32,000 nt of DNA from Thermoanaerobaculia bacterium. GTDB lineage: Bacteria; Acidobacteriota; Thermoanaerobaculia; Gp7-AA8. Under the pieces are notes generated by a model. That model was given only the letters and a program-made list of their open reading frames with translations. It was not told the DNA's origin and searched no databases. This document shows positions 19,748-31,264 of the stretch, one piece after another (positions within the stretch are counted from its first letter, which is position 1; each line of letters opens with the position of its first letter). The stretch spans positions 11,589 to 43,588 of the forward strand of contig DASPHC010000034.1 in NCBI GenBank assembly GCA_035629865.1. The letters run 5' to 3'. The position numbers and the translations under genes are program-made.

Positions 19748-19783
19748 CGAGTTCTCGGGAGGGGGCTCGCGAGATTCCGGAGA
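19748..19783 (-). promoter_or_regulatory. UAS-like box, partly palindromic (gagttctcggga / tccggagaactc)
   Basis: Sequence cgagttctcgggagggggctcgcgagattccggaga contains 12-bp inverted arms with 1 mismatch. It lies 77 nt upstream of the -24-like TGG and is similar to 8016..8049. Confidence 0.4.
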
Positions 19784-20470: not shown

Positions 20471-20692
20471 GCCCTTACGGCGAGACGCCGTCCGCCGGCG
20501 GGACGCCGCCGGACCAGCCGACGCGACGTCGGCGCTCCGGCGCATGACCGCGGTCCCCGCGAATTGACCGTGCGTGGATCGAAGCGACGTGGCTCCGGTC
20601 ATCGTAAACCATGCGTCCGCGCGTGGAGCGCCCGCGTCGCGCGGGCTGGACCGGCGGCGTCCCGCCGGCGGACGGCGTCTCGCCGTAAGGGG
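20471..20692. repeat. palindromic element with ~48-bp terminal inverted repeats
   Basis: Left arm cccttacggcgagacgccgtccgccggcgggacgccgccggaccagcc (20472..20519) is the reverse complement of 20644..20692 with 1 mismatch. An inner hairpin gccgacg-cga-cgtcggc is present. It lies between convergent genes. Confidence 0.85.
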
Positions 20693-20710: not shown

Positions 20711-21181
20711 CTACCCCTCCTCCTCCTCCTTCTTCTTCGGAGGCCTCGGCGGCGGCGGGTGGCCGAAGTCTTTGATGTAGGCGGCGCGCATGGCTTCGAC
20801 GTGGGGGATGAGGTCGGCGTGCTCGGGGTCCTCAATGAGCTCGACGGCGGTGTAGTAGACCTCCATCGCGTTTTCCATCAGCTTCGCGTTCTGTTCGTCG
20901 AGGGTCTCGCTGAGATCGTCGGCCAGGGCCTGGAGGCCGTCGGCGACCGCCATCAGCTCGAACTCTTCTTCCGAGAGGGCGTCGTAGCGGCCGTCGAGCG
21001 CCTTCGGGTCGGGCTTCCGCGGCGGCTTGTCCTTGAGGATGGGGATCTCGGACCGCATCCGGGCGAGCTCGGACAGGATCTTCTCCGCGTCCACCTTCGG
21101 TAGCGGGCGGGCCTTTTTCGCGGCGGCGGCCTTCTTCGAGAGACCGAAATCGTATTTCGGGGCCGGCTTGCTCTTTTTCAT
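20711..21181 (-). CDS. hypothetical protein (156 aa) with basic N-terminus, acidic helical core and Pro/Lys/Glu tail
   Basis: ATG 21181 has GAGGAT upstream. The composition is protein-like (MKKSKPAPKYDFGLS...LSEEEFELMAVADGLQALADDLSETLDEQNAKLMENAMEVYYTAVELIEDPEHADLIPHVEAM...GHPPPPRPPKKKEEEEG). No family recognised. It lies 66 nt downstream of the Roc-TIR gene on the same strand. Confidence 0.6.
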   Translation of the reverse strand: MKKSKPAPKYDFGLSKKAAAAKKARPLPKVDAEKILSELARMRSEIPILKDKPPRKPDPKALDGRYDALSEEEFELMAVADGLQALADDLSETLDEQNAKLMENAMEVYYTAVELIEDPEHADLIPHVEAMRAAYIKDFGHPPPPRPPKKKEEEEG

Positions 21182-21247
21182 CGTGATCCTCGCAACCTCA
21201 CTAAAGTACTACTCCTGCGGCGAATCGGCGACCGTCGCGTCGCGTCT

Positions 21248-23686
21248 TCACCGCGCTGCCGACTTCTTCTCACGCACCCGTGCAATCACTGGCAACAGGT
21301 CTTTCCGCACTTGCTCCCAGACGAGGGACCGCGGCGAGACCTCGGCGACGCTCTTGAACTTCGGCGCCAGCCGCTGCAGTTTGCCGAGGAACGGGTCTTC
21401 GTCGCTCGCGCAGGGCTCGAGCTTGACGGTGACGATCTCCACCTCGCCGGCCGCATGGCGTTCCTTTGCGCGCTGCAGCTCGATGTCCCGGATGTAGGGT
21501 CGTACGAGCGAGGCCTGGCTGGCGATGAAAAGGAAGATGTCCGCTTCCTCCACCCGCTGCCGGATCTGCCGGTCCCATTCCTGGCCTGCGATCAAGCGTT
21601 GGTCGGTCCAGGAGGCCAGACCGTGTTGGAGCTCGAGGACGCCGAGGATGGCGTCCAGGCGTTTGAGCTGGCGTTCGTTCTCATGGGCGTAGCTGACGAA
21701 CAGGCGCACCGGAACGGGGGCCGTCTCCGGCTCGCGGTCGATGGCCCGCGCCTCGGGCGGAACGAGCTTGTCGAGCTCCCTCGACACGTGGATCTCGGCG
21801 GTCCCTTCCGGCAGCACGGGTAGTTTCTGGGTCGGCCGCTCCGGTGCCTCGATCTCGCGGAGGGCCTTGACGCCGATCCACTGCTCCGCGCTCCCGGTCA
21901 GCTCGAGATCCTCCACCGGCTGCATCTTCATCTCCACATGCAGCGCCTGCAGCTCACGCCGGACCATCGCGGCCAGGACCCGGCGGGTCTCTTCGTCGCC
22001 GCCGAGGACGAAGACGTGCAGCTCCTGCCGGTCGGGCTCCTCGCGAATCAGCGCCTGCGCTTTGGCATGCCGCAGGACGACGCCGTGCCGCCAGTGGGGA
22101 GCGTCTTCACTCAGCTCGTGCGTCCGGACGATGAAGCGGGGGAGCAGGCCCGGTGGCAGGATCTCGTAGCGGTAACGCAGCCGCACCTCCGCCTGCTCCC
22201 AGTTCTCTTTCATTTCGGGCTCGAACTCGGGGAGGCGTTCCGGGACGAGATAGCGGGTCGGCTTCCCATCCTCCTCCTCCCGCGTGTAGCAAAGCTGGAA
22301 CGCGCGCATCAGCTCGAGGATAAAGCGGTGGCTCTCCTTCGGATAATCGTTAGCGTCGATGACCTTCTCGGCCTCAGCCTCCGCCAGCACGCGCGGCATG
22401 TCTGCGACGGTCAGTTGCCCGTCGTTGGCCGCGACCGACGGTGCGCGAATCACGGCATAGACGCCGCCCGTGACCCAACTCGGGTTGAGCACCCGCGTAT
22501 CGTGCAGCTTGGGGTCCTTGCCGAAGTAGAGGGCCAGGCCGAGAGCGTGGAGGATTCCGGCCAGGTCGGCCTGTGCATCGGACCGCTCTTCGCCATGGTT
22601 GCTGCACAACTCCGTGTACTGATCGTAGGTGAGGAAGTTGCCGTGCATCCCGCCGACGGCATCCTTGATCGCGCGCCACCGTTTCGGGAACGGGAGCCAG
22701 ACGTCCGGCATCTGCTCGACCGTGCTCACGATCGTCTCGCGCAACTCATTGACGCCGTCACCATGAAGCGCGTCGACCGGCATGAATGCGACGATGAACG
22801 GGAACTTCCGGCGCAGCTTCACTTCGTCGACGCGCCAGGGCCGGCCGCGGCTCCAGTTCAGGACGACGATCGCCGGCGAGCCGTTTCCCTGCGCCTCGAT
22901 GAGCTTGAGCCAGTATTCGGCGTCCTTCTGCGCGGACCCGGTTCGCGGCTCCAGTACCAACAGGTACAGGCTACGCTCGGTGAGGAAGAACTGGTGCGTG
23001 GAGTGGAGGATCTCCTGCCCGCCGAAATCCCACGCTCGCGTTCGGACTTCGCCGCCGGGACACGACAGGGCGAGCTCGCGAATGGCGATGGAGTGGGTCT
23101 CGGATTCCCGCGGGTCAGGCGGCTCGTTTGCCAGGCGCTTCACCACCGTCGTTTTGCCGGCCTTGCCGCGGCCGACGAGGAGTAATTTCAGTTCGCGCAG
23201 AGGGCGGCTATTTTCGGTGCGCGATTCGAGGTAGTAGCGTAGGACTTCTACGGGGCGACGCGTGAGGAGACTTTCCGGCAGCCCCAGGGCTGGATTGCGG
23301 CCAACCCACAGTGTCTGTAATGACAGACCTTGCAGCGTCTCCGGTAGAGACTCAAGAAGGTTGTTAGACAAATAAAGATCTAGGAGTTTTGTCAAACGGC
23401 CAATTGTGTCCGGCAGGGAACGTAGACGATTATCTGCGAGGTCGAGCACCGTCAGCGTGGTTAACTCGCCGAACCACTCGGGGATCTCGCTGATCTTGTT
23501 CTGGCCGAGGTCCAGAATGCGAAGATTCCGAATAGTTCGAATGCTCTCCGGAACCTTTTCCAGCCCAAGTTCGTTCAGCCTCAGCGTATCGGAGGAGTAC
23601 GTGCCGACACCGGTTTTGTACTCCGCGATCATGCGTTCCGCCAGTTCCGCGGGTGTCCTGAACGCGTTTCGCTTCCCTCTCTCCAC
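21248..23686 (-). CDS. ROCO-type protein: LRR + Roc GTPase + COR + C-terminal TIR domain (812 aa)
   Basis: LRR units: LxxLxLxxNxLxxLP x5 (aa ~35-130). Roc G1 (GRGKAGKTT) and G3 (WDFGGQE). COR-like: LNPSWVTGGVYAVIR, FILELMRAFQLCY. TIR-like at aa ~659-795: VRLFVSYAHENERQLKRLDAIL...WTDQRLIAGQEWDRQIRQRVEEADIFLFIASQASLVRPYIRDIELQRA. The track start is GTG 23686, with GGAGG only 2 nt upstream; the alternative is ATG 23632. Confidence 0.85.
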   Translation of the reverse strand: MERGKRNAFRTPAELAERMIAEYKTGVGTYSSDTLRLNELGLEKVPESIRTIRNLRILDLGQNKISEIPEWFGELTTLTVLDLADNRLRSLPDTIGRLTKLLDLYLSNNLLESLPETLQGLSLQTLWVGRNPALGLPESLLTRRPVEVLRYYLESRTENSRPLRELKLLLVGRGKAGKTTVVKRLANEPPDPRESETHSIAIRELALSCPGGEVRTRAWDFGGQEILHSTHQFFLTERSLYLLVLEPRTGSAQKDAEYWLKLIEAQGNGSPAIVVLNWSRGRPWRVDEVKLRRKFPFIVAFMPVDALHGDGVNELRETIVSTVEQMPDVWLPFPKRWRAIKDAVGGMHGNFLTYDQYTELCSNHGEERSDAQADLAGILHALGLALYFGKDPKLHDTRVLNPSWVTGGVYAVIRAPSVAANDGQLTVADMPRVLAEAEAEKVIDANDYPKESHRFILELMRAFQLCYTREEEDGKPTRYLVPERLPEFEPEMKENWEQAEVRLRYRYEILPPGLLPRFIVRTHELSEDAPHWRHGVVLRHAKAQALIREEPDRQELHVFVLGGDEETRRVLAAMVRRELQALHVEMKMQPVEDLELTGSAEQWIGVKALREIEAPERPTQKLPVLPEGTAEIHVSRELDKLVPPEARAIDREPETAPVPVRLFVSYAHENERQLKRLDAILGVLELQHGLASWTDQRLIAGQEWDRQIRQRVEEADIFLFIASQASLVRPYIRDIELQRAKERHAAGEVEIVTVKLEPCASDEDPFLGKLQRLAPKFKSVAEVSPRSLVWEQVRKDLLPVIARVREKKSAAR

Positions 23687-23693
23687 TGCCTCC

Positions 23694-23792
23694 CTACTCC
23701 CCGGCCTTCTTCTCAGGCCTCGCCGGCGGCGGATGCCCGTACTGCACGCCGAAGGCGAACTTGTCGAACTTCAAGGGCATGTTCTTCTTCAT
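23694..23792 (-). CDS. possible 32-aa ORF, mini-paralog of the 156-aa protein at 20711..21181
   Basis: My own translation: MKKNMPLKFDKFAFGVQYGHPPPARPEKKAGE*. Its N-terminus resembles MKKSKPAPKYDFGLS and its C-terminus resembles DFGHPPPPRPPKKKEEEEG. DNA homology is visible (cttcttc..aggcctcg.cggcggcgg). It ends 7 nt before the Roc-TIR GTG. It may be a remnant rather than a gene. Confidence 0.3.
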   Translation of the reverse strand: MKKNMPLKFDKFAFGVQYGHPPPARPEKKAGE

Positions 23793-23933
23793 CTCGAATC
23801 TCGCGATCGGCCGTCTGGGAACTGCTCTACGGTACTACCAACACCGGCGACAGCCGAGAGGCATGATGGGAGCCCGCGATGGGAGCGACGGTGTCCGCGC
23901 AGGCTTGTCCGGCGCGGCGTCTCGCCGCCAGGG

Positions 23934-24112
23934 AACGGACCGCCGGCCCGTCCCGCCGGCCGGTCCGCCGACGTCGCGTCGGCAGGCACTCGCGATGCGT
24001 GTCGTATTCGACGGTTGGGTGGTGGAGCCGCGCCGTAGGCGAGCTCCTGCCAAGAGCCGGCCCACGAGGACGTGGGCGGACCGGCCGGCGAGGACGGCCG
24101 GCGGTCCGTTTG
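23934..24112. repeat. palindromic element related to 20471..20692
   Basis: Arms are ggaacggaccgccggcccgtcccgccggccggtccgcc and ggcggaccggccggcgaggacggccggcggtccgtttgc. The same inner hairpin appears with a different loop (gccgacg-tcg-cgtcggc). Confidence 0.7.
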
Positions 24113-24213
24113 CGGCGCGCCGGAGGCGCGCCAATCGCCCCGGAGGCATGTCGTGGGGTCAGAGCTTCGCTCTTCGTTCCTGAGCAAAGCAAAGCTCTGA
24201 CCCCAAGAGCGAG

Positions 24214-24805
24214 CCCGGCGCTGAAGATCAGAGCCGGGAGGCAAGAAACGAGTCGCGCGCGGCAAGATTGTTGTCTCGGGCGACAAGATTCTTGTCTCGC
24301 GAAGCGTCATTCTTGTGTCGCGGCTCTGAAAACCAGAGCCGGGAAGCATCAAACGAGTCTCGGGCGCCAGGATTCTTGTCTCGCGAGGCAACATTCTTGT
24401 GTTGCGGCTCTGAGAATCAGAGCCGGGAGGCAAGGAACGAGTCTCGCGAGGCAAGATTGTTGTCTCGGGCGCCAAGATTCTTCGCTCGCGAGGCAACATT
24501 CTTGTCTCGCGGCTCTGAAACTCAGAGCCGGGAGGTAAGAAAAGAGTCTCGGGCGCCAAGATTCTTGCCTCGCGACGCAACATTCTTGTGTCGCGGCTCT
24601 GAAAGTCAGAGCCGGGAAGCAAGAAGCGAGTCTCGCGCGACTGGATTGTTGCCTCGGGCGCCAAGATTCTTGCCTCGCGAGGCAACATTCTTGTGTCGCG
24701 GCTCTGAGAGTCAGAGCCGGGAAGCAACAAACGAGTCTCGGGTGACAAGATTCTTGCCTCGCGAGGCAACATTCTTATCTCCCGGCTCTGAAAGTCAGAG
24801 CCGGG
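24214..24805. repeat. nested tandem array: 21-bp palindrome-containing units, 84/105-bp super-units, 189-bp higher-order period
   Basis: There are seven copies of the hairpin CGGCTCTGA-nnn-TCAGAGCCGGG, with starts spaced 105, 84, 105, 84, 105 and 84 bp. Between them lie 2 or 3 units of 21 bp built on TTGyCTCGsGrGrCAA (a perfect 16-bp palindrome TTGCCTCGCGAGGCAA in several copies) plus a gATTc/cATTc linker. G+C is lower than the surroundings. The array is preceded by a related hairpin at 24155..24204 (ggggtcagagctt/aagctctgacccc). Confidence 0.9.
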
Positions 24806-24855
24806 AAGCGAGGATCATGTCTCTCGCGACGAGATCGACTTGGGCTGGATCGGCT

Positions 24856-25014
24856 TTACGTTCCGGCGCACGCGGAGGGAGGTTTGGAACCCTCCCCCTC
24901 GTAATACACATCCGCCTCCACCCGCTGCTGCCACTCCGGCCAGGTCTCGACGGTGCTTTGCGCCTCCTCGAGGACTGTCCAGAAGTCGATGGGCGGCGGA
25001 ACGTCCTCGGCCAT
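24856..25014 (-). CDS. possible small ORF (52 aa)
   Basis: My own translation: MAEDVPPPIDFWTVLEEAQSTVETWPEWQQRVEADVYYEGEGSKPPSACAGT*. The composition is protein-like but there is no convincing RBS. It is below the track cutoff. Confidence 0.25.
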   Translation of the reverse strand: MAEDVPPPIDFWTVLEEAQSTVETWPEWQQRVEADVYYEGEGSKPPSACAGT

Positions 25015-25096
25015 GAAGAGATTATCGCTCAAATGTTTAGCGGCTCATAATCCTCTTCAATGGGTAGAGCGGGGGGCACCGGGGGATGCGGCCTCT

Positions 25097-25260
25097 AGTG
25101 TGGTGTCTCACAAATAGCTATGCGTTCTTCAGCACGCTGGAGGCCCGCTTGCTTCGCCGCCGCCCCTCAACGATGACACCGCATCGCCTGCGTCGCGGCG
25201 GCTCGCCATCGAGCCTCCGTCGCGCCGAATAACGTATAGCTATTTGCGAGACACCACACT
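25097..25260. mobile_element. 164-bp MITE-like element with 30-bp terminal inverted repeats
   Basis: Left arm agtgtggtgtctcacaaatagctatgcgtt matches the reverse complement of the right arm aacgtatagctatttgcgagacaccacact at 28 of 30 positions. The arms are conspicuously AT-richer than the genome. The right end is 50 bp upstream of ATG 25310. Confidence 0.65.
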
Positions 25261-25309: not shown

Positions 25310-27439
25310 ATGCTCGGTACGACCTTCAGCCCCGCGGGACTCACCATTACGATCACCCCCACCGCCGATCTGATCGCGCAGGAGTCCACCATCGAGGCGG
25401 CGATGGTGGCGCAGATTGCTCCCGGTACGAGCTATTCGCCGCAGAACGGACCTTCCGCGGGGACGCCTCTGAATGCCGCCTCGTGGGCTTACTACTGGGT
25501 CAGCTCCGACGGCACGGAGTCGGACTGGGCGGCCGTCGCGGGGACGAGCGTGCCGTCGTTCACGTCGTTCACGGCGGCGACGGCGCAGAGCGTGATGCTG
25601 CCGGATACGCAGGTCGTCTCGGGCCGGGTCTACTTCGGGATGCCGTCGTTGCCGGTGATCGCGGTGGCGAGCAGCGTCCCGCAGTCGGTGCTCTCGACCT
25701 CCGACTCGGGCGTGTACGACTTCGTCGAGTTCTCCTACGTGGCGGACGCGGTGACGTATGCCGACACGACGATGATCGACCAGTTCGGAATCCCGATGCA
25801 GATCGAGCTGGTGCCGCTCTCGTCGTCGACGCCGGCACCGCCGGCCGCCGGGGTGTACCTCGACCGGACCGGCGTGATCAGCCAGTTCCAGACCAACGTC
25901 GTGGCGGCATTTCAAACCGGCCTGCAGAATATCTGCGGACAGCCGGTGGCGCCGCCGCCGCTGCGGATACTCTCGCCGAATGACGTGCTGGTGTACAGCT
26001 GCGTCCAGGGCGTGACCGCCTCGGTTCCGGCCGGAGGCGGCTCCTCCACCCTGGCGGCCGGCACCTATGCGTATGCCGTCTCGGCGGTCGACGCGAACGG
26101 CAACGAAGGCTACGTGCAGGCCACGCTGGCGCCGATCACGATCGCGGCCAATCAGCAGGTCACGATCGGATGGGCCCCCCTGGCGAGCCAGCCGTACGGC
26201 GGCGCCGGGATCGCGAGCTTCAACGTCTATCGATACGACTCCACGGCCGGGACGTGGACGCTGCTGAACTTCTCGCCGCCGCTCACTTCCAGCTCGACGG
26301 CGGCGCAGGACACCGGCCAGGCCGGCACGGTGCAGACGCCGAACTTCAATCCGCTGGCGAGCTGGTTCGACGGCGCGATCGGGAGTTTCTTCGACTACTA
26401 CCAGTCCAACATCCTGATCCTCATCGTCCCCAACGTCTCCCCTTCCGGCAGCACCTGGCTTTACTCGTTCAACGGGAGCACCGTGCCGGCCTCGGGGAGT
26501 CCGCAGTCGCTGCAGTTCTCGTTCACCGGTGCGGCCGATCTGACGACCGGGGACTCGATTTCCTCCGCCGACCTGCCGTTCGCGGCAGGGACCCCGTTCA
26601 ACGTCTATTACCCGTACTGGAGCTCGAATACCTACGGGACGAGCTCCGTGGCACCGCCGTCGTGGACGCCGTATCCGAATTCGCCCGCTTCGATGATGGT
26701 GTTCGCGGCGAACGGGGTCTGGGCGGACAACGTCAATCAGGTCTACGACAACCTTCCGTCGCAGGTGACGCCGCCCCCTGCTCTTCCCGCGCAATTGGTC
26801 GCGACCTCGCCGGCGGGAATCTGGTCGACGCTGCTCGGGACGCTGGAGAACATGGTGGTCTCGGCGCTCACTCGCGGCATCGGCGCTCCGCTCCAGGGTT
26901 CCCTGCCGATCGCTCCGGCGAGCTGGGCGAGCCAGCCGACGCAGACAGTGCCGACGCTCAGCTCCGGCACCAGCTCCCTCCAGGCGGGGACCACGTACTA
27001 CTACGTCATCACGGCCATGAACGGCACCGGCAGCAGCGCCACCGAGAGTGCGCCGAGCCTGGAGATGACCGCGCAGCCGGTGGCCGGTTCGCTGGTGGTG
27101 AACGTGAACTGGAACCCGGTGCTGACCTGGCAGGCGACGTCGTTCAACATCTACCGGGGAACGGTATCGGGAGAGGAGAACATCCTCGTCCAGAACGTCA
27201 CGAACGACGGGACCGTCGCGACATTGGCCGATACGGGACAGGGGACCTCGCAGAGTCCGTCGGTCAGCTACTTCCCCTCCGGCTCGGTCTTCAACAATTA
27301 CGTGGCCTTCTTCCACCAGACGTCGATCAGTTACGGCGGCGGCGCGTACGCCAGCCCGTACGACGACCAGTCCGCGCAGTCGTCGACGATCGTCTGCGCC
27401 GCCTCGGGCCTGAACATCACCCTCGGACCGTGGTCGTGA
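25310..27439 (+). CDS. GH64 / thaumatin-like superfamily (beta-1,3-glucanase-like) protein with two FN3-like insertions (709 aa)
   Basis: RBS GGAGAGGAGAGAG. Motifs recalled from GH64 enzymes: SGRVYFG, YDFVEFSY...TTMIDQFGIP (the candidate Glu/Asp pair is retained), and C-terminal GGAYASPYDDQSAQSS. Two FN3-like blocks: GTYAYAVSAVDANGNEG...FNVYR and GTTYYYVITAMNGTGSS...FNIYRG. No N-terminal signal peptide is visible. Confidence 0.6.
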   Translation: MLGTTFSPAGLTITITPTADLIAQESTIEAAMVAQIAPGTSYSPQNGPSAGTPLNAASWAYYWVSSDGTESDWAAVAGTSVPSFTSFTAATAQSVMLPDTQVVSGRVYFGMPSLPVIAVASSVPQSVLSTSDSGVYDFVEFSYVADAVTYADTTMIDQFGIPMQIELVPLSSSTPAPPAAGVYLDRTGVISQFQTNVVAAFQTGLQNICGQPVAPPPLRILSPNDVLVYSCVQGVTASVPAGGGSSTLAAGTYAYAVSAVDANGNEGYVQATLAPITIAANQQVTIGWAPLASQPYGGAGIASFNVYRYDSTAGTWTLLNFSPPLTSSSTAAQDTGQAGTVQTPNFNPLASWFDGAIGSFFDYYQSNILILIVPNVSPSGSTWLYSFNGSTVPASGSPQSLQFSFTGAADLTTGDSISSADLPFAAGTPFNVYYPYWSSNTYGTSSVAPPSWTPYPNSPASMMVFAANGVWADNVNQVYDNLPSQVTPPPALPAQLVATSPAGIWSTLLGTLENMVVSALTRGIGAPLQGSLPIAPASWASQPTQTVPTLSSGTSSLQAGTTYYYVITAMNGTGSSATESAPSLEMTAQPVAGSLVVNVNWNPVLTWQATSFNIYRGTVSGEENILVQNVTNDGTVATLADTGQGTSQSPSVSYFPSGSVFNNYVAFFHQTSISYGGGAYASPYDDQSAQSSTIVCAASGLNITLGPWS

Positions 27440-27456
27440 GCGGGCTTCACCCGCTC
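27438..27456. terminator. bidirectional stem-loop at convergent gene ends
   Basis: gagcggg-cttca-cccgctc forms a perfect 7-bp stem. It contains the stop codons of both convergent genes (27437..27439 and 27447..27449). Confidence 0.55.
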
Positions 27457-28994
27457 ATGATCTTCTTCAATTGGTAGAGTGCCTTGGCTTCGAGGTCGAG
27501 GTAGCTCAGGGGGAGCATTTCGACTTTCGGGGCGGAGGTTTTGGGGTCCCAGCGGATCCGTTCGCCGGAGAGTTTGGTCTTGCGGTCGCGGGGGATGCCG
27601 GTGCGGGTGGTGATGGAGAAGAGGTCGACGTAGCGATGCGGGCCGATGCCGAGGAAGGGCTCGAAGCGGATGGCGTTCGGGTTCGGGGCCGATGCGTCGT
27701 CGTAGGCGCGGATGGCGTCGCGGTGAAGCTCCAGGGCCCGGCTCTTCGGGTACGGCTCGATGTAGACCACGCGGCGGATGCCGGCGTTGACGATCAGCCG
27801 CGCGCATTGGTGGCAGGGGAAGGTGGTGGTGTAGAGGGTGGCGTCGCGGGGGCTGGTGCCGATGCGCGCGGCGGCCATGACGGCTTCCATTTCGGCGTGG
27901 GTGGTGCGGCCGAATTCGAGGAGGGTCATGACGCGCGATTTCTTGAAGACTTCGCGGGCGTCGTCGAGCTTCGGCCAGCCGGCATGTTCGGCCATCTCCA
28001 GCAGTTCGCCGATGATCTGGTCGGCATGGACGTTGACGGAGTCGCGGTCTTCGTGGATGTCGCGGCGGTCGTACGGATCGCCGGCGCGATAGAGGCCGCC
28101 GCCCGCCTTGGGGACGTCGTTCCAGCCGATGCCGAGGACCTCGCGGTGGGGGGAGACGAGGACCGCGCCGACCTGGCGTCCGAGGGCGCCGGAGGCGAGG
28201 GAAGTGGCGAAGGCCTGATACATGAACTGCTCGTCGGCCCACGGCGTCTCGCCGAGATCGCCGAGGACGAGGCGGGTGAAGCGGTCGATCTGGTCGAAGA
28301 GCGGCTTGGTGCTGTTCGGCGAGACGAAGAGGTCGCACAGCTGGAAGACGTCGCGCAGGCGCTGGCCGTACGGGTCGGACGACTCGTCTTCGTCGCGCCG
28401 GGCGAGCGCCTCGGCGCTGGCGAGGTGGTTGTCGAAGTTGGACGAGGAGGGGGTCTCGTTGTACGACCCGGCGATCCGGCGGGCCAGCGACTCGACGCGC
28501 GCCGGCCGGTTGACGTTCACGCCGACGAGGAAGAATCCGGGCCCGTAGATGCGGCGCAGGAGGTGGACTTCTTCCGGCCGTTTGAGGGAGCGGATGATGT
28601 ACGCCCGTCTGCCGGGCTGTCCTCCGCGGCGTTTCCGGCGCCCCCGGACCTCGGCCAGTGCGGCCGTCGCGACGGCGGCGGGGTTGGAGACCAGCCGGCG
28701 GATGGCGTTACCGGCATCCATGTAGGAGGCGATACGCTGCTCTTCGGGAGTCTCGATCAGGCGAATCGGCGATTCGTCTACACGGAGGAGAGTACGCTTT
28801 GCGGCGATCTGGCGGATCAAGGCGGTGACACTGATCTCCTCGACCTCCCGGTATTCGCACTTCTTCAGGGAGTCGCCGAGGGTACGGCTGACTTCCTGCA
28901 GGTCGGCTCCGACCGGGCCGGCGAGGGCGAAGACGAGCTCGAGGTGCCGTTCCGCGGCGTCTTCCAAGGCGTTGTTCATGTCGTCGTCCCGCAC
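27447..28994 (-). CDS. anti-phage-type dCTP deaminase-like protein (kinase-like N-terminal domain + dCMP/cytidine deaminase zinc-binding domain)
   Basis: Deaminase motifs: THAEMEAVMAAAR (H-A-E) and TTFPCHQCARLIVNAGIRRVVY (P-C-x-x-C). The ~300-aa N-terminal region begins LELVFALAGPVGADL. Size and architecture fit the defence dCTP deaminase family. Start is GTG 28994 or ATG 28979 (MNNALED). Confidence 0.7.
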   Translation of the reverse strand: MRDDDMNNALEDAAERHLELVFALAGPVGADLQEVSRTLGDSLKKCEYREVEEISVTALIRQIAAKRTLLRVDESPIRLIETPEEQRIASYMDAGNAIRRLVSNPAAVATAALAEVRGRRKRRGGQPGRRAYIIRSLKRPEEVHLLRRIYGPGFFLVGVNVNRPARVESLARRIAGSYNETPSSSNFDNHLASAEALARRDEDESSDPYGQRLRDVFQLCDLFVSPNSTKPLFDQIDRFTRLVLGDLGETPWADEQFMYQAFATSLASGALGRQVGAVLVSPHREVLGIGWNDVPKAGGGLYRAGDPYDRRDIHEDRDSVNVHADQIIGELLEMAEHAGWPKLDDAREVFKKSRVMTLLEFGRTTHAEMEAVMAAARIGTSPRDATLYTTTFPCHQCARLIVNAGIRRVVYIEPYPKSRALELHRDAIRAYDDASAPNPNAIRFEPFLGIGPHRYVDLFSITTRTGIPRDRKTKLSGERIRWDPKTSAPKVEMLPLSYLDLEAKALYQLKKIMSG

Positions 28995-29003
28995 GTTGCT
29001 CGG

Positions 29004-29033
29004 TTGACAGAGCGTAACAGAAGGACGTACAAG
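29004..29033 (+). promoter_or_regulatory. candidate sigma-70-type promoter for the DUF2130-like/ParB-like operon
   Basis: TTGACA (29004..29009), an 18-nt spacer, then TACAAG (29028..29033). It sits in a locally AT-richer divergent intergenic region, ~50 nt before ATG 29087. Confidence 0.25.
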
Positions 29034-29086
29034 TACAAAAGAGGACTTACAAGGACAGGCAGGGAGCGTATGCTCCGGGAGGCCCG

Positions 29087-30172
29087 ATGAACGTCATCGC
29101 CGTGGAACGCTGCCCGTGGTGCGGCAGCATGATCACCCACAAAAAGTTCGTCCAGATCCAGGCCGCCATCCGCGAAGAGGAGCAGAAGAAGCTTGCCGCG
29201 GCTGAGAAATCCTTCCGGGCCGCCCTTGAAAAAGAGGTCGCCGCGCAGCAGTTGAAGTTCCAGAAGGAGCGCCAGGCGCTCGATGCCGAGCGGGCGAAGC
29301 TGGGGAAACAGATCGAGGCGGCGAAGCAGGAGGCCGAGAAGCAGCGCAAGAAGGACATCGCCGAGGTCCGCCAGATCCTGCAGAAGGATCGCGAGACCGC
29401 CATCCTGAAGAAGGAGGCGGAGTTCGCCCGGGAGCGGGAGGCGCTGCAGAAGCGGATCGCCGAGATGAGCCGGCGGGTGAAGCGCGGCGGCGAGGTCGGG
29501 GAGGGGTCGGAGCTCGATCTCTTCGACGAGCTCCGCGGCGCCTTCCCGGAGGACCAGGTCACCCGCACGAAGGGGAAGGGTGTGGGCACGATCCTGCACG
29601 ATGTGCGCTACAAGGGGCGTTCCGCAGGCAAGATCCTGCTCGATATCACACCCCGCGCAGCGTGGCAGCACGCGTTCGTGACCCGGTTGCGCGAGGAGCA
29701 GTCGGCCACCGGCACCGATCACGCGATCCTGTCCACCCCTGTCTTTCCGTCCGGCAAGCGGGAGCTGTTCGTCGATTCCGGGATCATCGTGGTCGCCCCG
29801 GCGCGGGTCCGGGCGATCGTGGAGGTGCTGCGGAAGGCGCTGATCTCGATGTACGTGGCGAAGCTGAGCGACGCGGAGCGGTCGGACAAGCTGAGCCGCC
29901 TGTTCCGCTTCATCACCTCGCCCGGCTTCAAGAAACGGCTGGCCGAGGCCTCCGACCTGGCAGGAGAGGCGCTGGAGATCGACGTGCAGGAGAAGCGGGC
30001 CCACGACAATGTCTGGAAGAAGCGCGGCACGGTCCTGACCCGCATCAAGCACGTGCTCCGCGAGATCGACACCGACGTCAGCGCGATCGTCGAGGCGCGG
30101 GAGGAGGGCGACCCCGAGGCGCCTCCCTCGCTGCGCGCTGCCGCTTACCGCATCACGGACAAAGAGCAATGA
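29087..30172 (+). CDS. DUF2130-like protein: N-terminal zinc ribbon, long coiled coil, C-terminal restriction-endonuclease-like domain (361 aa)
   Basis: GGGAGG lies 5 nt before the ATG. Zinc ribbon CPWCG, then ~110 aa of Lys/Glu/Ala/Gln coiled coil. The following stretch, GSELDLFDELRGAFPEDQVTRTKGKGVGTILHDVRYKGRSAGKILLDITPRAAWQHAFVTRLREEQ...HAILSTPVFP, follows the DUF2130 layout as I recall it. Confidence 0.65.
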   Translation: MNVIAVERCPWCGSMITHKKFVQIQAAIREEEQKKLAAAEKSFRAALEKEVAAQQLKFQKERQALDAERAKLGKQIEAAKQEAEKQRKKDIAEVRQILQKDRETAILKKEAEFAREREALQKRIAEMSRRVKRGGEVGEGSELDLFDELRGAFPEDQVTRTKGKGVGTILHDVRYKGRSAGKILLDITPRAAWQHAFVTRLREEQSATGTDHAILSTPVFPSGKRELFVDSGIIVVAPARVRAIVEVLRKALISMYVAKLSDAERSDKLSRLFRFITSPGFKKRLAEASDLAGEALEIDVQEKRAHDNVWKKRGTVLTRIKHVLREIDTDVSAIVEAREEGDPEAPPSLRAAAYRITDKEQ

Positions 30173-31116
30173 GCAACTTCGCGGAGCCGATCGGCAGTCC
30201 CGCCCCTCCCTGGCAGGAGCGCCGCCTCGGACGCACGATCCTGCGCACCTATCGCGACACCCGCGATCTGTACGACGTCGTCCCGAACGCGCGCCAGCCG
30301 CGCATGGGGCCGAAGGAGGATCTCGAGCTGCAGCGGCAGATCGAGGCGAACGAGGGGATCTTCGAGCCGCTGCTGGTCGAGCCGCACCCGGACCTGGAGG
30401 GGAAGTACCGGATCATCGACGGCGACCGCCGCTGGACGAACTCGAAGGTGCTGGTGGAGGTCCAGAAGAAGGAGGAGTACCGCCGCATCCCCCTCGAGAT
30501 CACCGACCGGACGCTCACCGACGAGGAGCGCCTGCGGGTCTGGATCTACATCCATCGCCAGCGGAAGGAGTGGGACGCCAAGGAGAAGGAGATGGTGGCG
30601 TACGGCCTGGTCGACATCGTCGGCCGCGCCAGTGCCGCGAACATCCTCGGCGTGACGGTGCGGGAGCTCGACAAGCTGGTGGAGATCTACCAGCTCTCCG
30701 AGAAGCTGACCAACCTCCCCGAGCCCGGTTCCTCGATCACCTGGGCCCGCGAGATCAAGAACATCAACAAGTCCCTCCTGACCCCGACGATCCTCGACAC
30801 GATCGTGCAGAAGGTGAACGAGAACGAGATCACCAACTCGAAGGACATCCGCAAACTGCGCATCGTCCTCCGCGACCCGGTCGCCAGGCAGAAGTTCGTC
30901 GAGGGGCAAAGCCTCGACGCGGTGCTGGATGCCGTGCTGCCGGTGGTGGAGGAGAAGAAGAAGGGTGGGCTTGCGGGGGAGATCGAGGAGCTGAACGAAG
31001 CGCTCCGCCGGCATCCGTGGACGAGCCTCATCGAGAACCGCGGGGATGAGAAGCTGCTGAAGCAGTTGGAAGAGGCGGAGAAGCTGGTGAAGGAGTTGCG
31101 GAAGGTGTTGGGGTAG
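30169..31116 (+). CDS. ParB/Srx N-terminal-domain-like protein (315 aa)
   Basis: ATG 30169 is in an ATGA overlap with the upstream stop. The ParB-like box is GIFEPLLVEPHPDLEGKYRIIDGDRRWTNS (DGxRR arginine patch), followed by a helical C-terminal region. The upstream part of track ORF 29662..31116 is a shadow. Confidence 0.65.
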   Translation: MSNFAEPIGSPAPPWQERRLGRTILRTYRDTRDLYDVVPNARQPRMGPKEDLELQRQIEANEGIFEPLLVEPHPDLEGKYRIIDGDRRWTNSKVLVEVQKKEEYRRIPLEITDRTLTDEERLRVWIYIHRQRKEWDAKEKEMVAYGLVDIVGRASAANILGVTVRELDKLVEIYQLSEKLTNLPEPGSSITWAREIKNINKSLLTPTILDTIVQKVNENEITNSKDIRKLRIVLRDPVARQKFVEGQSLDAVLDAVLPVVEEKKKGGLAGEIEELNEALRRHPWTSLIENRGDEKLLKQLEEAEKLVKELRKVLG

Positions 31117-31122
31117 GGACCG

Positions 31123-31264
31123 GGATTGAGGATTGAGGATTGAGGATTGAGGATTTGGCCGGTGGTTACCGGTGATCCCAGATCCTCAATGCTCTGACCC
31201 CGGCCGCCCTCGGAGGGCGCGGGATTCCATGTCCCTAATCCTCAATCCTCAATCCTCAATCCCC
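31123..31264. repeat. heptamer tandem repeat (GGATTGA x4) paired with inverted complement (AATCCTC x3-4); long hairpin
   Basis: 31123..31156 is ggattga x4 plus ggattt. 31237..31264 is aatcctc x3 plus aatcccc. There is one extra partial copy (gatcctcaat, 31181..31190) and an inner palindrome cgccctc-g-gagggcg. It sits between convergent gene ends (31116 and 31266). Confidence 0.85.

What the first reader, a model, noticed from the sequence alone, without database searches (positions are those of the whole stretch)
24214..24805. ~590-bp nested array of 21-bp-phased palindromes (16-bp TTGCCTCGCGAGGCAA-type sites punctuated by CGGCTCTGA/TCAGAGCCG hairpins)
Seen:
- Everything is in 21-bp register (about two helical turns).
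- Units of 21 bp carry a 16-bp palindrome or near-palindrome plus a 5-nt linker.
- Every 84 or 105 bp, in strict alternation (105, 84, 105, 84, 105, 84, so a 189-bp higher-order repeat), a 42-bp unit with a ~10-bp-stem hairpin occurs.
- G+C is lower than the surroundings.
- Because 21 is a multiple of 3, both strands stay open. This explains the repetitive pseudo-proteins in the track (23789..24772 minus, 24268..25050 plus).
- It is not CRISPR-like, because there are no unique spacers.

Inference: more than 15 phased dyad-symmetric sites on one helical face look like a centromere-, iteron- or operator-type binding array for a dimeric DNA-binding protein. A ParB-fold protein is encoded 5.4 kb away, and canonical parS is also a 16-bp palindrome. 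Alternatively, the array encodes a highly structured multi-hairpin RNA. The CTCGCGAG core also occurs in the UAS-like boxes at 8016..8049 and 19748..19783, which may be coincidence.
Basis: partly seen in the sequence, partly recalled or inferred. Interest (0 to 1): 0.65.

Follow-up and report, generated by a model that had tools for sequence, protein, structure and literature searches.

The report
Tandem 21-bp palindrome array, REP-like
The 600-bp stretch is a real, strictly 21-bp-phased array of small palindromes. It belongs to an apparently undescribed family of hairpin-punctuated intergenic repeat arrays scattered through Acidobacteria-type soil genomes, so it looks like repetitive extragenic palindromic (REP/BIME-type) DNA, not a centromere or operator.

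Summary
Window 24216-24824 holds 29 units in exact 21-nt register: 7 copies of the hairpin unit CGGCTCTGA-N3-TCAGAGCCG (H), spaced 105/84/105/84/105/84, and 22 near-palindromic filler units. Together they give a 189-bp higher-order repeat. G+C is 57% against 67% for the window.

The same H hairpin punctuates tandem arrays at about 17 other loci. These lie in seven Thermoanaerobaculia/Acidobacteria MAGs and three metagenome contigs, with several loci per genome, and I judged all of them intergenic. H spacing is mostly a multiple of 21. Filler sequence differs from locus to locus but is usually still dyad-symmetric.

No ParB, transposase or other protein is a recurrent neighbour. A close relative lacks the whole 3.7-kb segment that carries the array and an LRR-Roc-COR-TIR gene. 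One orthologous family locus has 7 versus 2 hairpins.

No frame looks coding, there is no Rfam match, and I found no compensatory covariation.

Best reading: a REP/BIME-like, dispersed palindromic repeat array lying just 3' of a small gene. The centromere/operator idea is not supported. A structured RNA role is not excluded.

The parts
24216..24824 (.). The array: 29 units of 21 nt in exact register. Seven are H hairpin units and 22 are near-palindromic filler units of types B, C, C' and D. They are arranged as alternating H-B-C-C'-D (105 bp) and H-B-C-D (84 bp) modules, which gives a 189-bp higher-order repeat of about 3.1 copies.
24216..24236 (.). H unit 0 (CGGCGCTGAAGATCAGAGCCG, 1 mismatch). 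The other H units are at 24321-24341, 24405-24425, 24510-24530, 24594-24614, 24699-24719 and 24783-24803. This 9-bp-stem, 3-nt-loop palindrome is the part conserved across the whole family.
24153..24205 (.). Flanking long hairpin GGGGTCAGAGCTTCG...AAGCTCTGACCCC at the left edge of the array. A homologous hairpin sits at the same edge of the related array in L067 but not in L071.
   Evidence: (I18)
23934..24110 (.). G+C-rich inverted doublet: 42-nt arms, 88% complementary, 93 nt apart. It is built from the motif GGACCGCCGGC(C)CGTCCCGCCGGC. The same motif lies next to hairpin arrays in the Thermoanaerobaculia loci L003, L028 and L038. A third copy is at window 20648-20669. This is a second REP-like family, so the intergenic region is a mosaic.
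   Evidence: (I5)
24859..25014 (-). Small conserved gene (52 aa from the ATG). Its stop codon (24856-24858, included in the ORF coordinates 24856..25032) lies 31 nt from the last array unit. On the minus strand the array lies immediately 3' of this gene.
   Evidence: G+C by codon position 0.66/0.49/0.81; 48 cluster representatives of 35-69 aa, most matching from the ATG, query residue 7, or within a few residues of it
21248..23686 (-). LRR-Roc-COR-TIR gene. It is the next gene downstream of the array on the minus strand and lies in the same accessory segment.
21231..24893 (.). Approximate extent of the segment that is absent from the orthologous locus of a close relative (L072). It holds the array, the REP-like hairpins and the Roc-COR-TIR gene. 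In L072 the small gene and the orthologue of ORF 20711..21181 are about 90 nt apart.

Best explanation
The array is non-coding repetitive DNA of the REP/BIME kind. It is a tandem concatenation of 21-nt palindromic units that belongs to a dispersed, lineage-specific family of hairpin-punctuated arrays in Acidobacteriota (Thermoanaerobaculia-like genomes).

**Shown**
- The conserved element of the family is the 21-nt hairpin CGGCTCTGA-N3-TCAGAGCCG.
- The units between hairpins come in whole 21-nt quanta in most arrays. They differ in sequence between loci but usually keep dyad symmetry in the same phase.
- Arrays occur at several intergenic sites per genome. They vary in copy number at an orthologous site and sit in accessory DNA.

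**Inferred**
- Arrays grow and shrink by slipped-strand mispairing or unequal recombination in whole units (21, 84, 105, 189 bp). This would produce the higher-order repeat.
- Whole arrays are copied to new intergenic sites by an unidentified mechanism. One possibility is a trans-acting enzyme that recognises the H hairpin, as RAYT transposases do for REPs.
- Any effect on the cell is most likely indirect. In this window the array lies 31 nt after the stop codon of a small gene and upstream of the TIR-effector gene on the same strand. There its stacked hairpins would act on that transcript as a 3'-end stabiliser, a terminator or an insulator. Extrusion as cruciforms is an alternative. It would not act as a site array for a dedicated DNA-binding protein.
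For: **A family, not a one-off**
- The exact H unit finds multi-copy arrays in six Thermoanaerobaculia MAGs and one Acidobacteria gp7 MAG.
- With up to 3 mismatches, 14 loci carry 2-8 H units each.
- Two more arrays of the window's own subtype turned up in metagenomes: L067 and L071.

**21-nt quantum**
- H-H distances are 63, 84, 105 or 126 in the window, L067, L071, L006, L031, L056, L058, L060, L061, L062 and L063.
- They are 64 or 81-83 (also 102 and 127) in two or three subfamilies.

**Structure kept while sequence changes**
- Filler units of 8 of 10 arrays have the unit centre (phase 20) among their two strongest dyad phases; it ranks third in L006 and is absent from L031. Their sequences are nevertheless unrelated between loci.

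**Dispersed and dynamic**
- Arrays 85-89% identical lie at two loci of one MAG (L003 and L026). L028 and L033 are a second such pair.
- The orthologous locus L038/L040 is 86.6% identical in its flanks but has 7 versus 2 hairpins (6 of the 7 fall within 3 mismatches).
- The window's array lies in a 3.7-kb segment missing from a relative that is 90% and 82% identical in the flanking genes.
- GH64 orthologues at 78-81% amino-acid identity have other neighbours and intergenic spacers too short to hold an array.

**Intergenic position, often just 3' of genes**
- I judged every array to lie between coding-like ORFs. Where a stop-to-stop frame overlapped an array (L033, L038, L053, L062) I took the real start to lie downstream.
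- About 20 of 28 flanking gene ends are 3' ends, several within 6-80 nt of a stop codon.
- All three window-type arrays abut the 3' end of a gene in the same orientation.

**REP-like company**
- GTAG-tagged REPs and a shared G+C-rich inverted motif sit beside the arrays.
- An IS110-family transposase gene starts about 150 nt from the ORF called across the L071 array, some 375 nt from the array's last unit. REPs are known targets of IS110-family elements (PMC1525189, PMC11208160).

**Not coding, not a known RNA**
-.
- BIMEs are described as regularly spaced REPs in alternating orientation (PMC2817692). A tandem array of palindromic units has exactly that form.
Against: - The defining REP tag (an unpaired GTAG or CGTC at one end, PMC3733652) is absent from the H unit.
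- No RAYT or other Y1 transposase was seen near any array. Only about 8 kb per locus could be inspected.
- Classical REP clusters are not quantised to a single unit length and rarely reach 29 units.
- The three window-type arrays keep the same unit order and nearly the same length at about 75-80% identity. This is more conservative than expected for a freely slipping satellite and hints at constraint on the whole 0.5-0.6-kb element.
- The H sequence is identical across several MAGs while the fillers are not. This suggests sequence-specific recognition by some factor, which could be a DNA- or RNA-binding protein with a cellular function.
- No transcription or binding data exist.
Confidence: 0.6

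Rival explanations
1. The array is a phased protein-binding array: a centromere, operator or nucleoid-organising site. A dimeric DNA-binding protein would occupy the dyad-symmetric 21-bp units on one face of the helix. A second or the same factor would bind the H palindrome.
For: - Exact 21-bp phasing, about two helical turns, holds over 29 units.
- The H sequence is conserved base for base across genomes while its surroundings drift, as expected for a recognised site.
- The unit order is conserved among three arrays.
- There is a known precedent: F-plasmid sopC has twelve 43-bp repeats, each with an inverted repeat (general knowledge).
Against: - Filler palindromes have different sequences at different loci, so no single binder fits them.
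- There are several arrays per genome.
- No ParA was seen. The ParB_N protein is 5.4 kb away, is below the partition-ParB cut-offs and is not found at any related locus.
- No filler-type site occurs outside the array in 32 kb.
- The array is absent in a close relative.
- The window carries ordinary chromosomal genes (chemotaxis cluster, sensor kinase, sigma factor), and the array has no plasmid or phage match.
Confidence: 0.13
2. The array is a functional structured RNA. It would be transcribed, most simply as the 3' UTR or intercistronic part of the minus-strand transcript running from the small gene towards the Roc-COR-TIR gene. It would fold into a string of 21-nt hairpins or long H-centred hairpins that control mRNA decay, termination or read-through into the TIR-effector gene. 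Alternatively it would be cut at H into repeated small RNAs.
For: - Both strands fold far better than shuffles: -365 kcal/mol (z -18.8) and -312 kcal/mol (z -20.1).
- Unit-centred pairs show 19 G-T against 6 A-C mismatches on the plus strand.
- All three window-type arrays have the same orientation relative to an upstream gene's stop codon.
- Dyad symmetry is preserved across subfamilies with different sequences.
- REPs are proposed to stabilise mRNA and terminate transcription (background statement in PMC3733652).
Against: - Covariation is not above shuffles for any of the three pairing models in 7 aligned higher-order repeats.
- Stem changes in H (CGGG versus CGGC in L071) are uncompensated.
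- The strand favoured by G-U pairs (plus) is opposite to the strand of the upstream gene (minus). The strand bias is also inconsistent across the family.
- There are no promoter-like sites. The terminator-like matches are only the repeat units themselves.
- There is no Rfam family.
- Any palindromic DNA folds well in silico.
Confidence: 0.2
3. The array encodes a genuine repeat protein with a 7-residue (or 28/35/63-residue) periodicity. The candidate frames are 24268..25050(+) and 23789..24772(-).
For: - 21 is a multiple of 3, and two frames are open over the array.
- A gene caller predicted a 225-aa protein across the related array in L071.
Against: - Third-position G+C is 0.51-0.62 in all six frames, against 0.81-0.90 in real neighbouring genes.
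- The plus-frame product has no relative in 5.8 billion proteins. The only minus-frame hit is another array.
- Related arrays have periods of 64 or 81-83 nt, which cannot keep a frame.
- Openness on both strands follows from the palindromy.
Confidence: 0.02
4. The array is a CRISPR-like or degenerate CRISPR array, with the 21-nt H hairpin as the repeat and the 63/84-nt fillers as spacers.
For: A palindromic repeat recurs at regular spacing. In the family a 21-nt hairpin plus 42-nt filler gives a 63-nt period.
Against: - The 'spacers' are copies of one another within each array (87% identity of the 189-bp repeat).
- In the window-type arrays the fillers are built from one 21-nt near-palindromic unit type.
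- No Cas domain appeared among the Pfam hits I obtained for window ORFs or among the 25 commonest families of 80 neighbouring ORFs.
- 21 nt is shorter than known CRISPR repeats.
Confidence: 0.01

Closest known systems
REP elements and their clusters (BIMEs) of Proteobacteria, including REPINs
   Same: - Short (20-40 bp) imperfect palindromes.
- Intergenic position, often just after stop codons.
- Many copies per genome.
- Clustered as regularly spaced units in alternating orientation, often mixed with other repeat types as a mosaic.
- Targeted by IS110-family elements.
- Variable between strains (PMC2817692, PMC3733652, PMC1525189).
   Different: - No unpaired GTAG or CGTC tag.
- No RAYT gene seen nearby.
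- Units are strictly quantised to 21 nt and concatenated without spacers into arrays of up to 29 units.
- One invariant 'punctuation' hairpin is combined with locus-specific filler palindromes and a higher-order repeat.
- The host phylum is Acidobacteriota.
Plasmid and chromosome centromeres made of repeated palindromes (F sopC: 12 x 43 bp; ParB-parS)
   Same: A tandem, phased array of dyad-symmetric sites. The canonical parS is also a 16-bp palindrome (general knowledge).
   Different: - No adjacent parA/parB operon.
- The nearby ParB_N protein fails the partition-ParB thresholds.
- TTGCCTCGCGAGGCAA does not resemble the canonical parS TGTTNCACGTGAAACA (comparison from memory, not a tool result).
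- There are several arrays per genome with different filler sequences.
- The array is absent from a close relative.
Intergenic VNTR-type repeats such as mycobacterial MIRUs
   Same: Tandem intergenic repeats between genes on the same strand. Copy number differs between related genomes (L038 versus L040).
   Different: MIRUs are 40-100-bp non-palindromic units, some carrying short coupled ORFs. Here the units are 21-nt palindromes with a conserved hairpin, and no frame is coding-like.
CRISPR arrays
   Same: A palindromic repeat recurs at fixed spacing.
   Different: No unique spacers, no cas genes, and a 21-nt repeat.

Membership tests
REP/BIME | A short (about 20-40 bp) imperfect palindrome able to form a stem-loop | tested here: met
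   H has a 9-bp stem and a 3-nt loop. Filler units have 8-nt arms and a 5-nt centre, 57-60% Watson-Crick against a 23% background.
REP/BIME | Many dispersed extragenic copies within one genome | tested here: inconclusive
   At least 4 loci in MAG SMAG_U12094, 3 each in U1737 and U8686, and 2 each in U4223 and gp7 AA8, all judged intergenic. Whole-genome counts could not be made. Only one array lies in the 32-kb window.
REP/BIME | An unpaired GTAG or CGTC tetranucleotide tag at one end (PMC3733652) | tested here: not met
   H units are flanked by CG/GG and carry no such tag. GTAG-tagged REPs of a different sequence exist beside the arrays in the MAG loci.
REP/BIME | An associated RAYT (Y1 transposase) gene flanked by the repeats | tested here: inconclusive
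   No Y1_Tnp appeared among the 25 commonest families of 80 ORFs within 4 kb of 17 arrays. Genomes could not be scanned as a whole. CGTC-type REPs also lack a dedicated transposase (PMC3733652).
REP/BIME | Clusters of regularly spaced units in alternating orientation, mosaic with other motifs | tested here: met
   Tandem palindromic units are equivalent to alternating head-to-head and tail-to-tail half-units. The G+C-rich inverted motif and the long hairpin adjoin the array.
ParB-parS type centromere | A cognate ParA/ParB operon next to or near the sites, with a ParB that passes family thresholds | tested here: not met
   ParB_N scores 28.4 bits in Pfam (cut-off 26.3) but 28.8 against 58.45 for TIGR00180. 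Its partner gene is DUF2130, not ParA. No relative of it occurs at 18 related loci.
ParB-parS type centromere | Sites conserved at the orthologous position in related replicons | tested here: not met
   Relative L072 lacks the whole segment. Related arrays lie in unrelated gene contexts.
ParB-parS type centromere | Binding of the partition protein to the repeats | not testable with these tools
   Needs EMSA, ChIP-seq or DAP-seq.
CRISPR | Unique spacers between identical repeats, and cas genes | tested here: not met
   Fillers are repeated. No Cas domains were seen.
Known structured RNA families (Rfam 15) | A match at the gathering score | tested here: not met
   No match at gathering. At E<=1 there are only far-sub-threshold miRNA-precursor-like hairpin matches.
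Repeat protein gene | Coding-type codon-position composition and homologues outside arrays | tested here: not met

The most novel reading that the evidence does not exclude
The invariant H hairpin may be the recognition site of an unidentified, lineage-wide factor, such as a nuclease, a recombinase or an RNA-processing enzyme. The arrays would then be working parts of a system and not junk.

- One version: long array transcripts are cut at H into many identical, locus-specific hairpin RNAs. This would be a spacer-less, CRISPR-like or decoy logic.
- Another version: the arrays are recombination or insulation modules that travel with accessory defence genes.

Two observations prompt this. Here the array lies in the same accessory segment as an LRR-Roc-COR-TIR gene, next to an anti-phage dCTP deaminase. 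In L038/L040 an array sits directly upstream of a TIR-CHAT-NB-ARC gene. The conserved unit order of three arrays in three gene contexts would then reflect selection on the whole 0.6-kb element.
Probability: 0.08. Interest if true: 0.8.

Novelty: new variant of a known kind. Interest (0 to 1): 0.42.

Why it matters
- **A new repeat family in a poorly studied phylum.** Repetitive extragenic palindromes have been studied almost only in Proteobacteria. This is a distinct, apparently undescribed family in soil Acidobacteriota. It has an unusual, strictly quantised architecture: an invariant 21-nt hairpin plus locus-specific 21-nt palindromes, building higher-order repeats.
- **Practical effects on assemblies and annotation.** Such arrays appear to break short-read assemblies: the Logan contig of this locus ends 121 nt upstream of the GH64 gene, inside the inverted repeat at 25097-25260. 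They also create false 'hypothetical proteins' (one is in a public catalogue, P0014) and can be mistaken for centromeres, operators or CRISPRs.
- **Genome plasticity.** The family marks variable, defence-gene-rich intergenic DNA and may be a recombination or insertion hotspot.
- **If a factor is found.** If the invariant hairpin has a dedicated binding or processing factor, the family would give a tractable entry to a new repeat-propagation or RNA-processing mechanism.

Tried and rejected
- **Plasmid, phage and viral origin:** blastn of the array against 72,556 plasmids and 50,697 phages, and an exact H scan of IMG/VR, found nothing.
- **Plus-frame pseudo-protein search:** no relatives. The minus-frame search found only one array-derived ORF.
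- **Rfam:** no hit at gathering, and nothing meaningful at E<=1.
- **Orthologous loci through the GH64 gene:** orthologues at 78-81% identity are not syntenic, so they say little about the array beyond that it is not tied to that gene.
- **Source identification:** exact-protein look-ups returned only short Logan contigs from SRR6958552. The taxon is inferred only from shared repeat families.
- **Covariation:** three pairing models were tested (unit-centred, junction-centred, long H-centred hairpin). All are 72-79% paired against 27-63% when slid, but compensatory changes do not exceed shuffles. This does not discriminate RNA, ssDNA and duplex readings.
- **Strand assignment:** MFE difference and G-U versus A-C counts are inconsistent across the family and confounded by strand composition.
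- **Recurrent partner protein:** none found by tblastn of window neighbours against related loci or by a Pfam census of 80 neighbouring ORFs.
- **Element ends:** no terminal repeats or target duplications at the borders of the 3.7-kb accessory segment, only 7-10-nt chance matches.
- **Literature:** searches for the hairpin sequence and for Thermoanaerobaculia REPs returned nothing relevant.
Full report
**1. The observation**

The region was read and laid out in 21-nt lines from 24216. Twenty-nine consecutive units stay in exact register up to about 24824.

- Tandem Repeats Finder reports periods of 21, 42, 84 and 105, and a 189-bp period of 3.1 copies at 87% identity, score 901.
- Autocorrelation is 0.52 at lag 21, 0.68 at lags 84 and 105, and 0.87 at lag 189. 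Off-phase lags give 0.12-0.25.
- The palindromic unit CGGCTCTGA-N3-TCAGAGCCG ('H') occurs seven times, at 24216, 24321, 24405, 24510, 24594, 24699 and 24783. The spacings are 105, 84, 105, 84, 105, 84. Shuffles give 0.07 matches, and there is no copy elsewhere in the window.
- The filler motif CAAGATTCTTGnCTCG gives 25 matches, all in the array.
- G+C is 57% against 67% for the window.

The consensus filler unit, GGAGGCAAGATTCTTGTCTCG, is itself a near-palindromic 21-mer. A tandem array of a palindromic unit necessarily has a second dyad axis at each junction. Both phases stand out equally, about 0.6 paired against a 0.23 background.

**2. Surroundings**

The array lies in a 1.6-kb gene-poor stretch. 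On one side is an LRR-Roc-COR-TIR gene (21248..23686, minus strand). On the other is a GH64-like glucanase gene (25310..27439, plus strand).

A 52-aa ORF (24859..25014, minus strand) has a coding-type G+C profile. It has 48 cluster-representative relatives of 35-69 aa, and most of the alignments begin at its ATG or within a few residues of it. It is therefore a real small gene.

On the minus strand the order is:
- the small gene;
- 31 nt of spacer;
- the array;
- a 13-bp-stem hairpin (24153-24205);
- a G+C-rich 42-nt inverted doublet (23934-24110);
- the Roc-COR-TIR gene.

Further right lie an anti-phage dCTP deaminase (NF041025 at 400 bits; PADLOC dCTPase E 2.5e-146), a DUF2130 gene and a ParB_N-domain gene.

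The ParB_N protein scores 28.8 bits against the 58.45-bit cut-off of the partition-ParB model. Neither of its neighbours, a DUF2130 gene and the deaminase gene, has a ParA-type family on record.

The rest of the window carries ordinary chromosomal genes: a chemotaxis cluster, a PAS histidine kinase, a sigma factor and a CHAT-TPR protein.

**3. It is one member of a family**

An exact scan for H across 185,579 species-representative genomes returned 63 loci. Most were single, scattered hits in unrelated taxa, roughly what chance would give for an 18-base palindromic pattern in 596 Gb (my estimate).

The multi-copy hits were concentrated in six 'Thermoanaerobaculia bacterium' MAGs and one 'Acidobacteria bacterium gp7' MAG, with 2-4 loci per MAG. 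With up to three mismatches, 14 of these loci carry 2-8 H units each.

H-H spacing is 63, 84, 105 or 126 in most arrays. It is 64 in one subfamily and 81-83 in another.

Between the H units each locus has its own filler sequence, repeated within the locus. In 8 of 10 arrays tested the unit centre, in register with H, is among the two strongest dyad phases of the filler 21-mers. It ranks third in L006 and is missing from L031, although the sequences themselves are unrelated between loci.

A metagenome scan for H followed by GGGA and a search with the minus-frame pseudo-protein found two arrays of the window's own subtype.
- L067 is Ga0190275_10005815.
- L071 is Ga0671535_0010798.

Both have the same B-C-C'-D-H / B-C-D-H order, the same 84/105 alternation and five hairpins within three mismatches (L067 also has a degenerate copy at each end). 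Identity to the window is about 75-80%, but the flanking genes are different.

**4. Dynamics**

- Arrays 85-89% identical lie at two loci of one MAG (L003 and L026). L028 and L033 are a second such pair.
- L038 and L040 are orthologous loci, 86.6% identical across the flanking TIR-CHAT-NB-ARC gene and recognisable on the other flank. They carry about 7 versus 2 hairpins.
- For the window, the short contig L072 from a close relative has the small gene (90% nt identity) followed after about 90 nt by the orthologue of window ORF 20711..21181 (82%). About 3.7 kb of the window (roughly 21231-24893) is therefore missing there. That segment holds the array, the REP-like hairpins and the Roc-COR-TIR gene.
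- GH64 orthologues at 78-81% amino-acid identity have other neighbours and intergenic spacers too short to hold an array.

**5. Context across the family**

With a simple codon-position G+C gene call, I judged every array to lie between coding-like ORFs. Where a stop-to-stop frame overlapped an array I took the real start to lie downstream. About 20 of 28 flanking gene ends are 3' ends, several only 6-80 nt from a stop codon.

All three window-type arrays abut the 3' end of a gene in the same orientation.

No relative of the window's neighbouring proteins occurs at any related locus. A Pfam census of 80 neighbouring ORFs shows only generic TPR, kinase, TIR, CHAT and sigma-factor domains among its 25 commonest families, with no ParB and no Y1 transposase.

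The arrays keep REP-like company.
- GTAG-tagged palindromes (GTAGGGCGGGCTTCAGCCCGCC) lie beside them in the MAG loci.
- The motif GGACCGCCGGC(C)GTCCCGCCGGC is shared between the window (three copies) and the Thermoanaerobaculia loci L003, L028 and L038.
- This sharing is also the only evidence for the window's taxonomic origin.
- In L071 an IS110-family transposase gene starts about 150 nt from the ORF called across the array, some 375 nt from the array's last unit. IS110-family elements are known to target REPs (PMC1525189, PMC11208160).

**6. Tests of the alternatives**

*Coding.* No frame has a coding-type profile: third-position G+C is 0.51-0.62 against 0.81-0.90 in neighbouring genes. The plus-frame product has no relative in 5.8 billion proteins. 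The minus-frame product matches only the ORF called across another array. Family members with 64- or 81-83-nt periods cannot hold a frame.

*Known RNA.* Nothing in Rfam reaches gathering score. At E<=1 there are only generic long-hairpin (miRNA-precursor) matches far below threshold.

*Structured RNA in general.*
- Both strands fold far better than shuffles: -365 and -312 kcal/mol, z about -19 and -20. Any palindromic repeat would do so.
- On an alignment of seven 189-nt higher-order repeats from the three arrays, unit-centred, junction-centred and long H-centred pairings are 72-79% paired, against 27-63% when slid. Compensatory changes do not exceed shuffles.
- Stem changes in H are uncompensated.
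- G-U versus A-C asymmetry favours the plus strand here (19 against 6), but it is inconsistent across the family.

*Centromere or operator.* There is no cognate protein. Filler sequences differ between loci, arrays occur several times per genome, and the array is absent from a close relative. No plasmid, phage or viral relatives exist.

*CRISPR.* The 'spacers' are repeats, and there are no cas genes.

**7. Interpretation**

The best-supported reading is a REP/BIME-like repeat. It is non-coding, palindromic, intergenic, multi-copy and lineage-specific. It varies in copy number and lies in accessory DNA.

The invariant H hairpin is the family's signature. The fillers behave as co-amplified palindromic 21-mers. 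The 84/105/189 hierarchy is what unequal exchange in whole units would produce.

*Shown:* the anatomy, the family, its dispersal, the copy-number difference, the absence from a relative, and the lack of coding or known-RNA signal.

*Inferred:* the mode of expansion, the mode of dispersal, and any effect on the transcript running from the small gene towards the TIR-effector gene (3'-end protection, termination or insulation).

*Points that do not fit a plain REP label:*
- there is no GTAG or CGTC tag (PMC3733652);
- no RAYT was seen;
- the 21-nt quantisation is strict;
- unit order is conserved among three arrays in three contexts;
- H is conserved base for base across MAGs.

The last two leave room for a trans-acting factor that recognises H. 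I therefore classify it as a new variant of a known kind, with moderate interest.

Noticed in passing
window 31123-31155 and 31237-31262; window 6165-6205 and 6266-6289: There are two separate loci with the same odd architecture. A tandem heptad array faces the reverse-complement heptad array 60-80 bp away: (GGATTGA)x4.7 ... (TCAATCC)x3.7 just after the ParB_N gene, and (GTTGTCR)x6 ... (YGACAAC)x3 near the YceI gene. These are long hairpins whose arms are heptad repeats. If any repeats in this window serve the ParB_N protein, the first pair is the better-placed candidate.
   Followed up: partly
window 25097-25152 / 25205-25260: A 56-nt inverted repeat, 82% complementary with a 52-nt loop, relatively A+T-rich, lies about 50 bp upstream of the GH64 start codon. 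It is MITE-like or a large regulatory hairpin. The short-read contig of this locus (L070) breaks inside it.
   Followed up: partly
window 27447-28994 (-), 29018-30172 (+), 30169-31116 (+): An anti-phage dCTP deaminase (NF041025 at its 400-bit cut-off; PADLOC dCTPase) lies next to a DUF2130 / ParB_N gene pair. DUF2130 has weak LmuB-like matches. Together with the Roc-COR-TIR gene the region looks like a defence island. The ParB_N protein is probably not a partition protein.
   Followed up: partly
window 21231-24893 versus L072: The LRR-Roc-COR-TIR gene and its 1.2-kb repeat-filled upstream region are an insertion or replacement relative to a close relative. The breakpoint lies inside the 3' end of the small gene, whose C-terminus differs between the two. 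No terminal repeats were found at the borders.
   Followed up: yes
They look like copies of one site that is unrelated to the array. Only the second contains CTCGCGAG, and the number of outside-array CTCGCGAG occurrences fits chance.
   Followed up: partly
L067 7823-7853 and 8494-8524: A direct repeat of about 30 bp (CAGAAGGTGTGACCCCACMCCTGGTKATCC) brackets the related array. The left copy is the 3' arm of the flanking long hairpin. It could be a trace of how the array was inserted or duplicated. Nothing equivalent exists in the window.
   Followed up: no
L071 979-1827 (+): An IS110-family (DEDD) transposase gene lies just beyond the end of the related array, next to a GTAG-like palindrome. 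This is consistent with IS110 targeting of REP-type sequences.
   Followed up: partly
L038 4245-8000 and L040 (orthologue): In another subfamily the hairpin array sits about 90 nt upstream of a TIR-CHAT-NB-ARC-TPR gene. With the window this makes two arrays directly 5' of TIR-domain NTPase genes. That is too few to call an association.
   Followed up: no
L003, L026, L028, L052, L053 (several positions): Classical GTAG-tagged REP hairpins (GTAGGGCGGGCTTCAGCCCGCC), often as inverted pairs, are abundant in the Thermoanaerobaculia MAG loci and often lie within 100 bp of the hairpin arrays.
   Followed up: partly
window 24859-25014 (-): The small ORF belongs to an unannotated family of proteins of about 50 aa (48 cluster representatives, no Pfam or NCBIfam model). 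Function unknown.
   Followed up: partly
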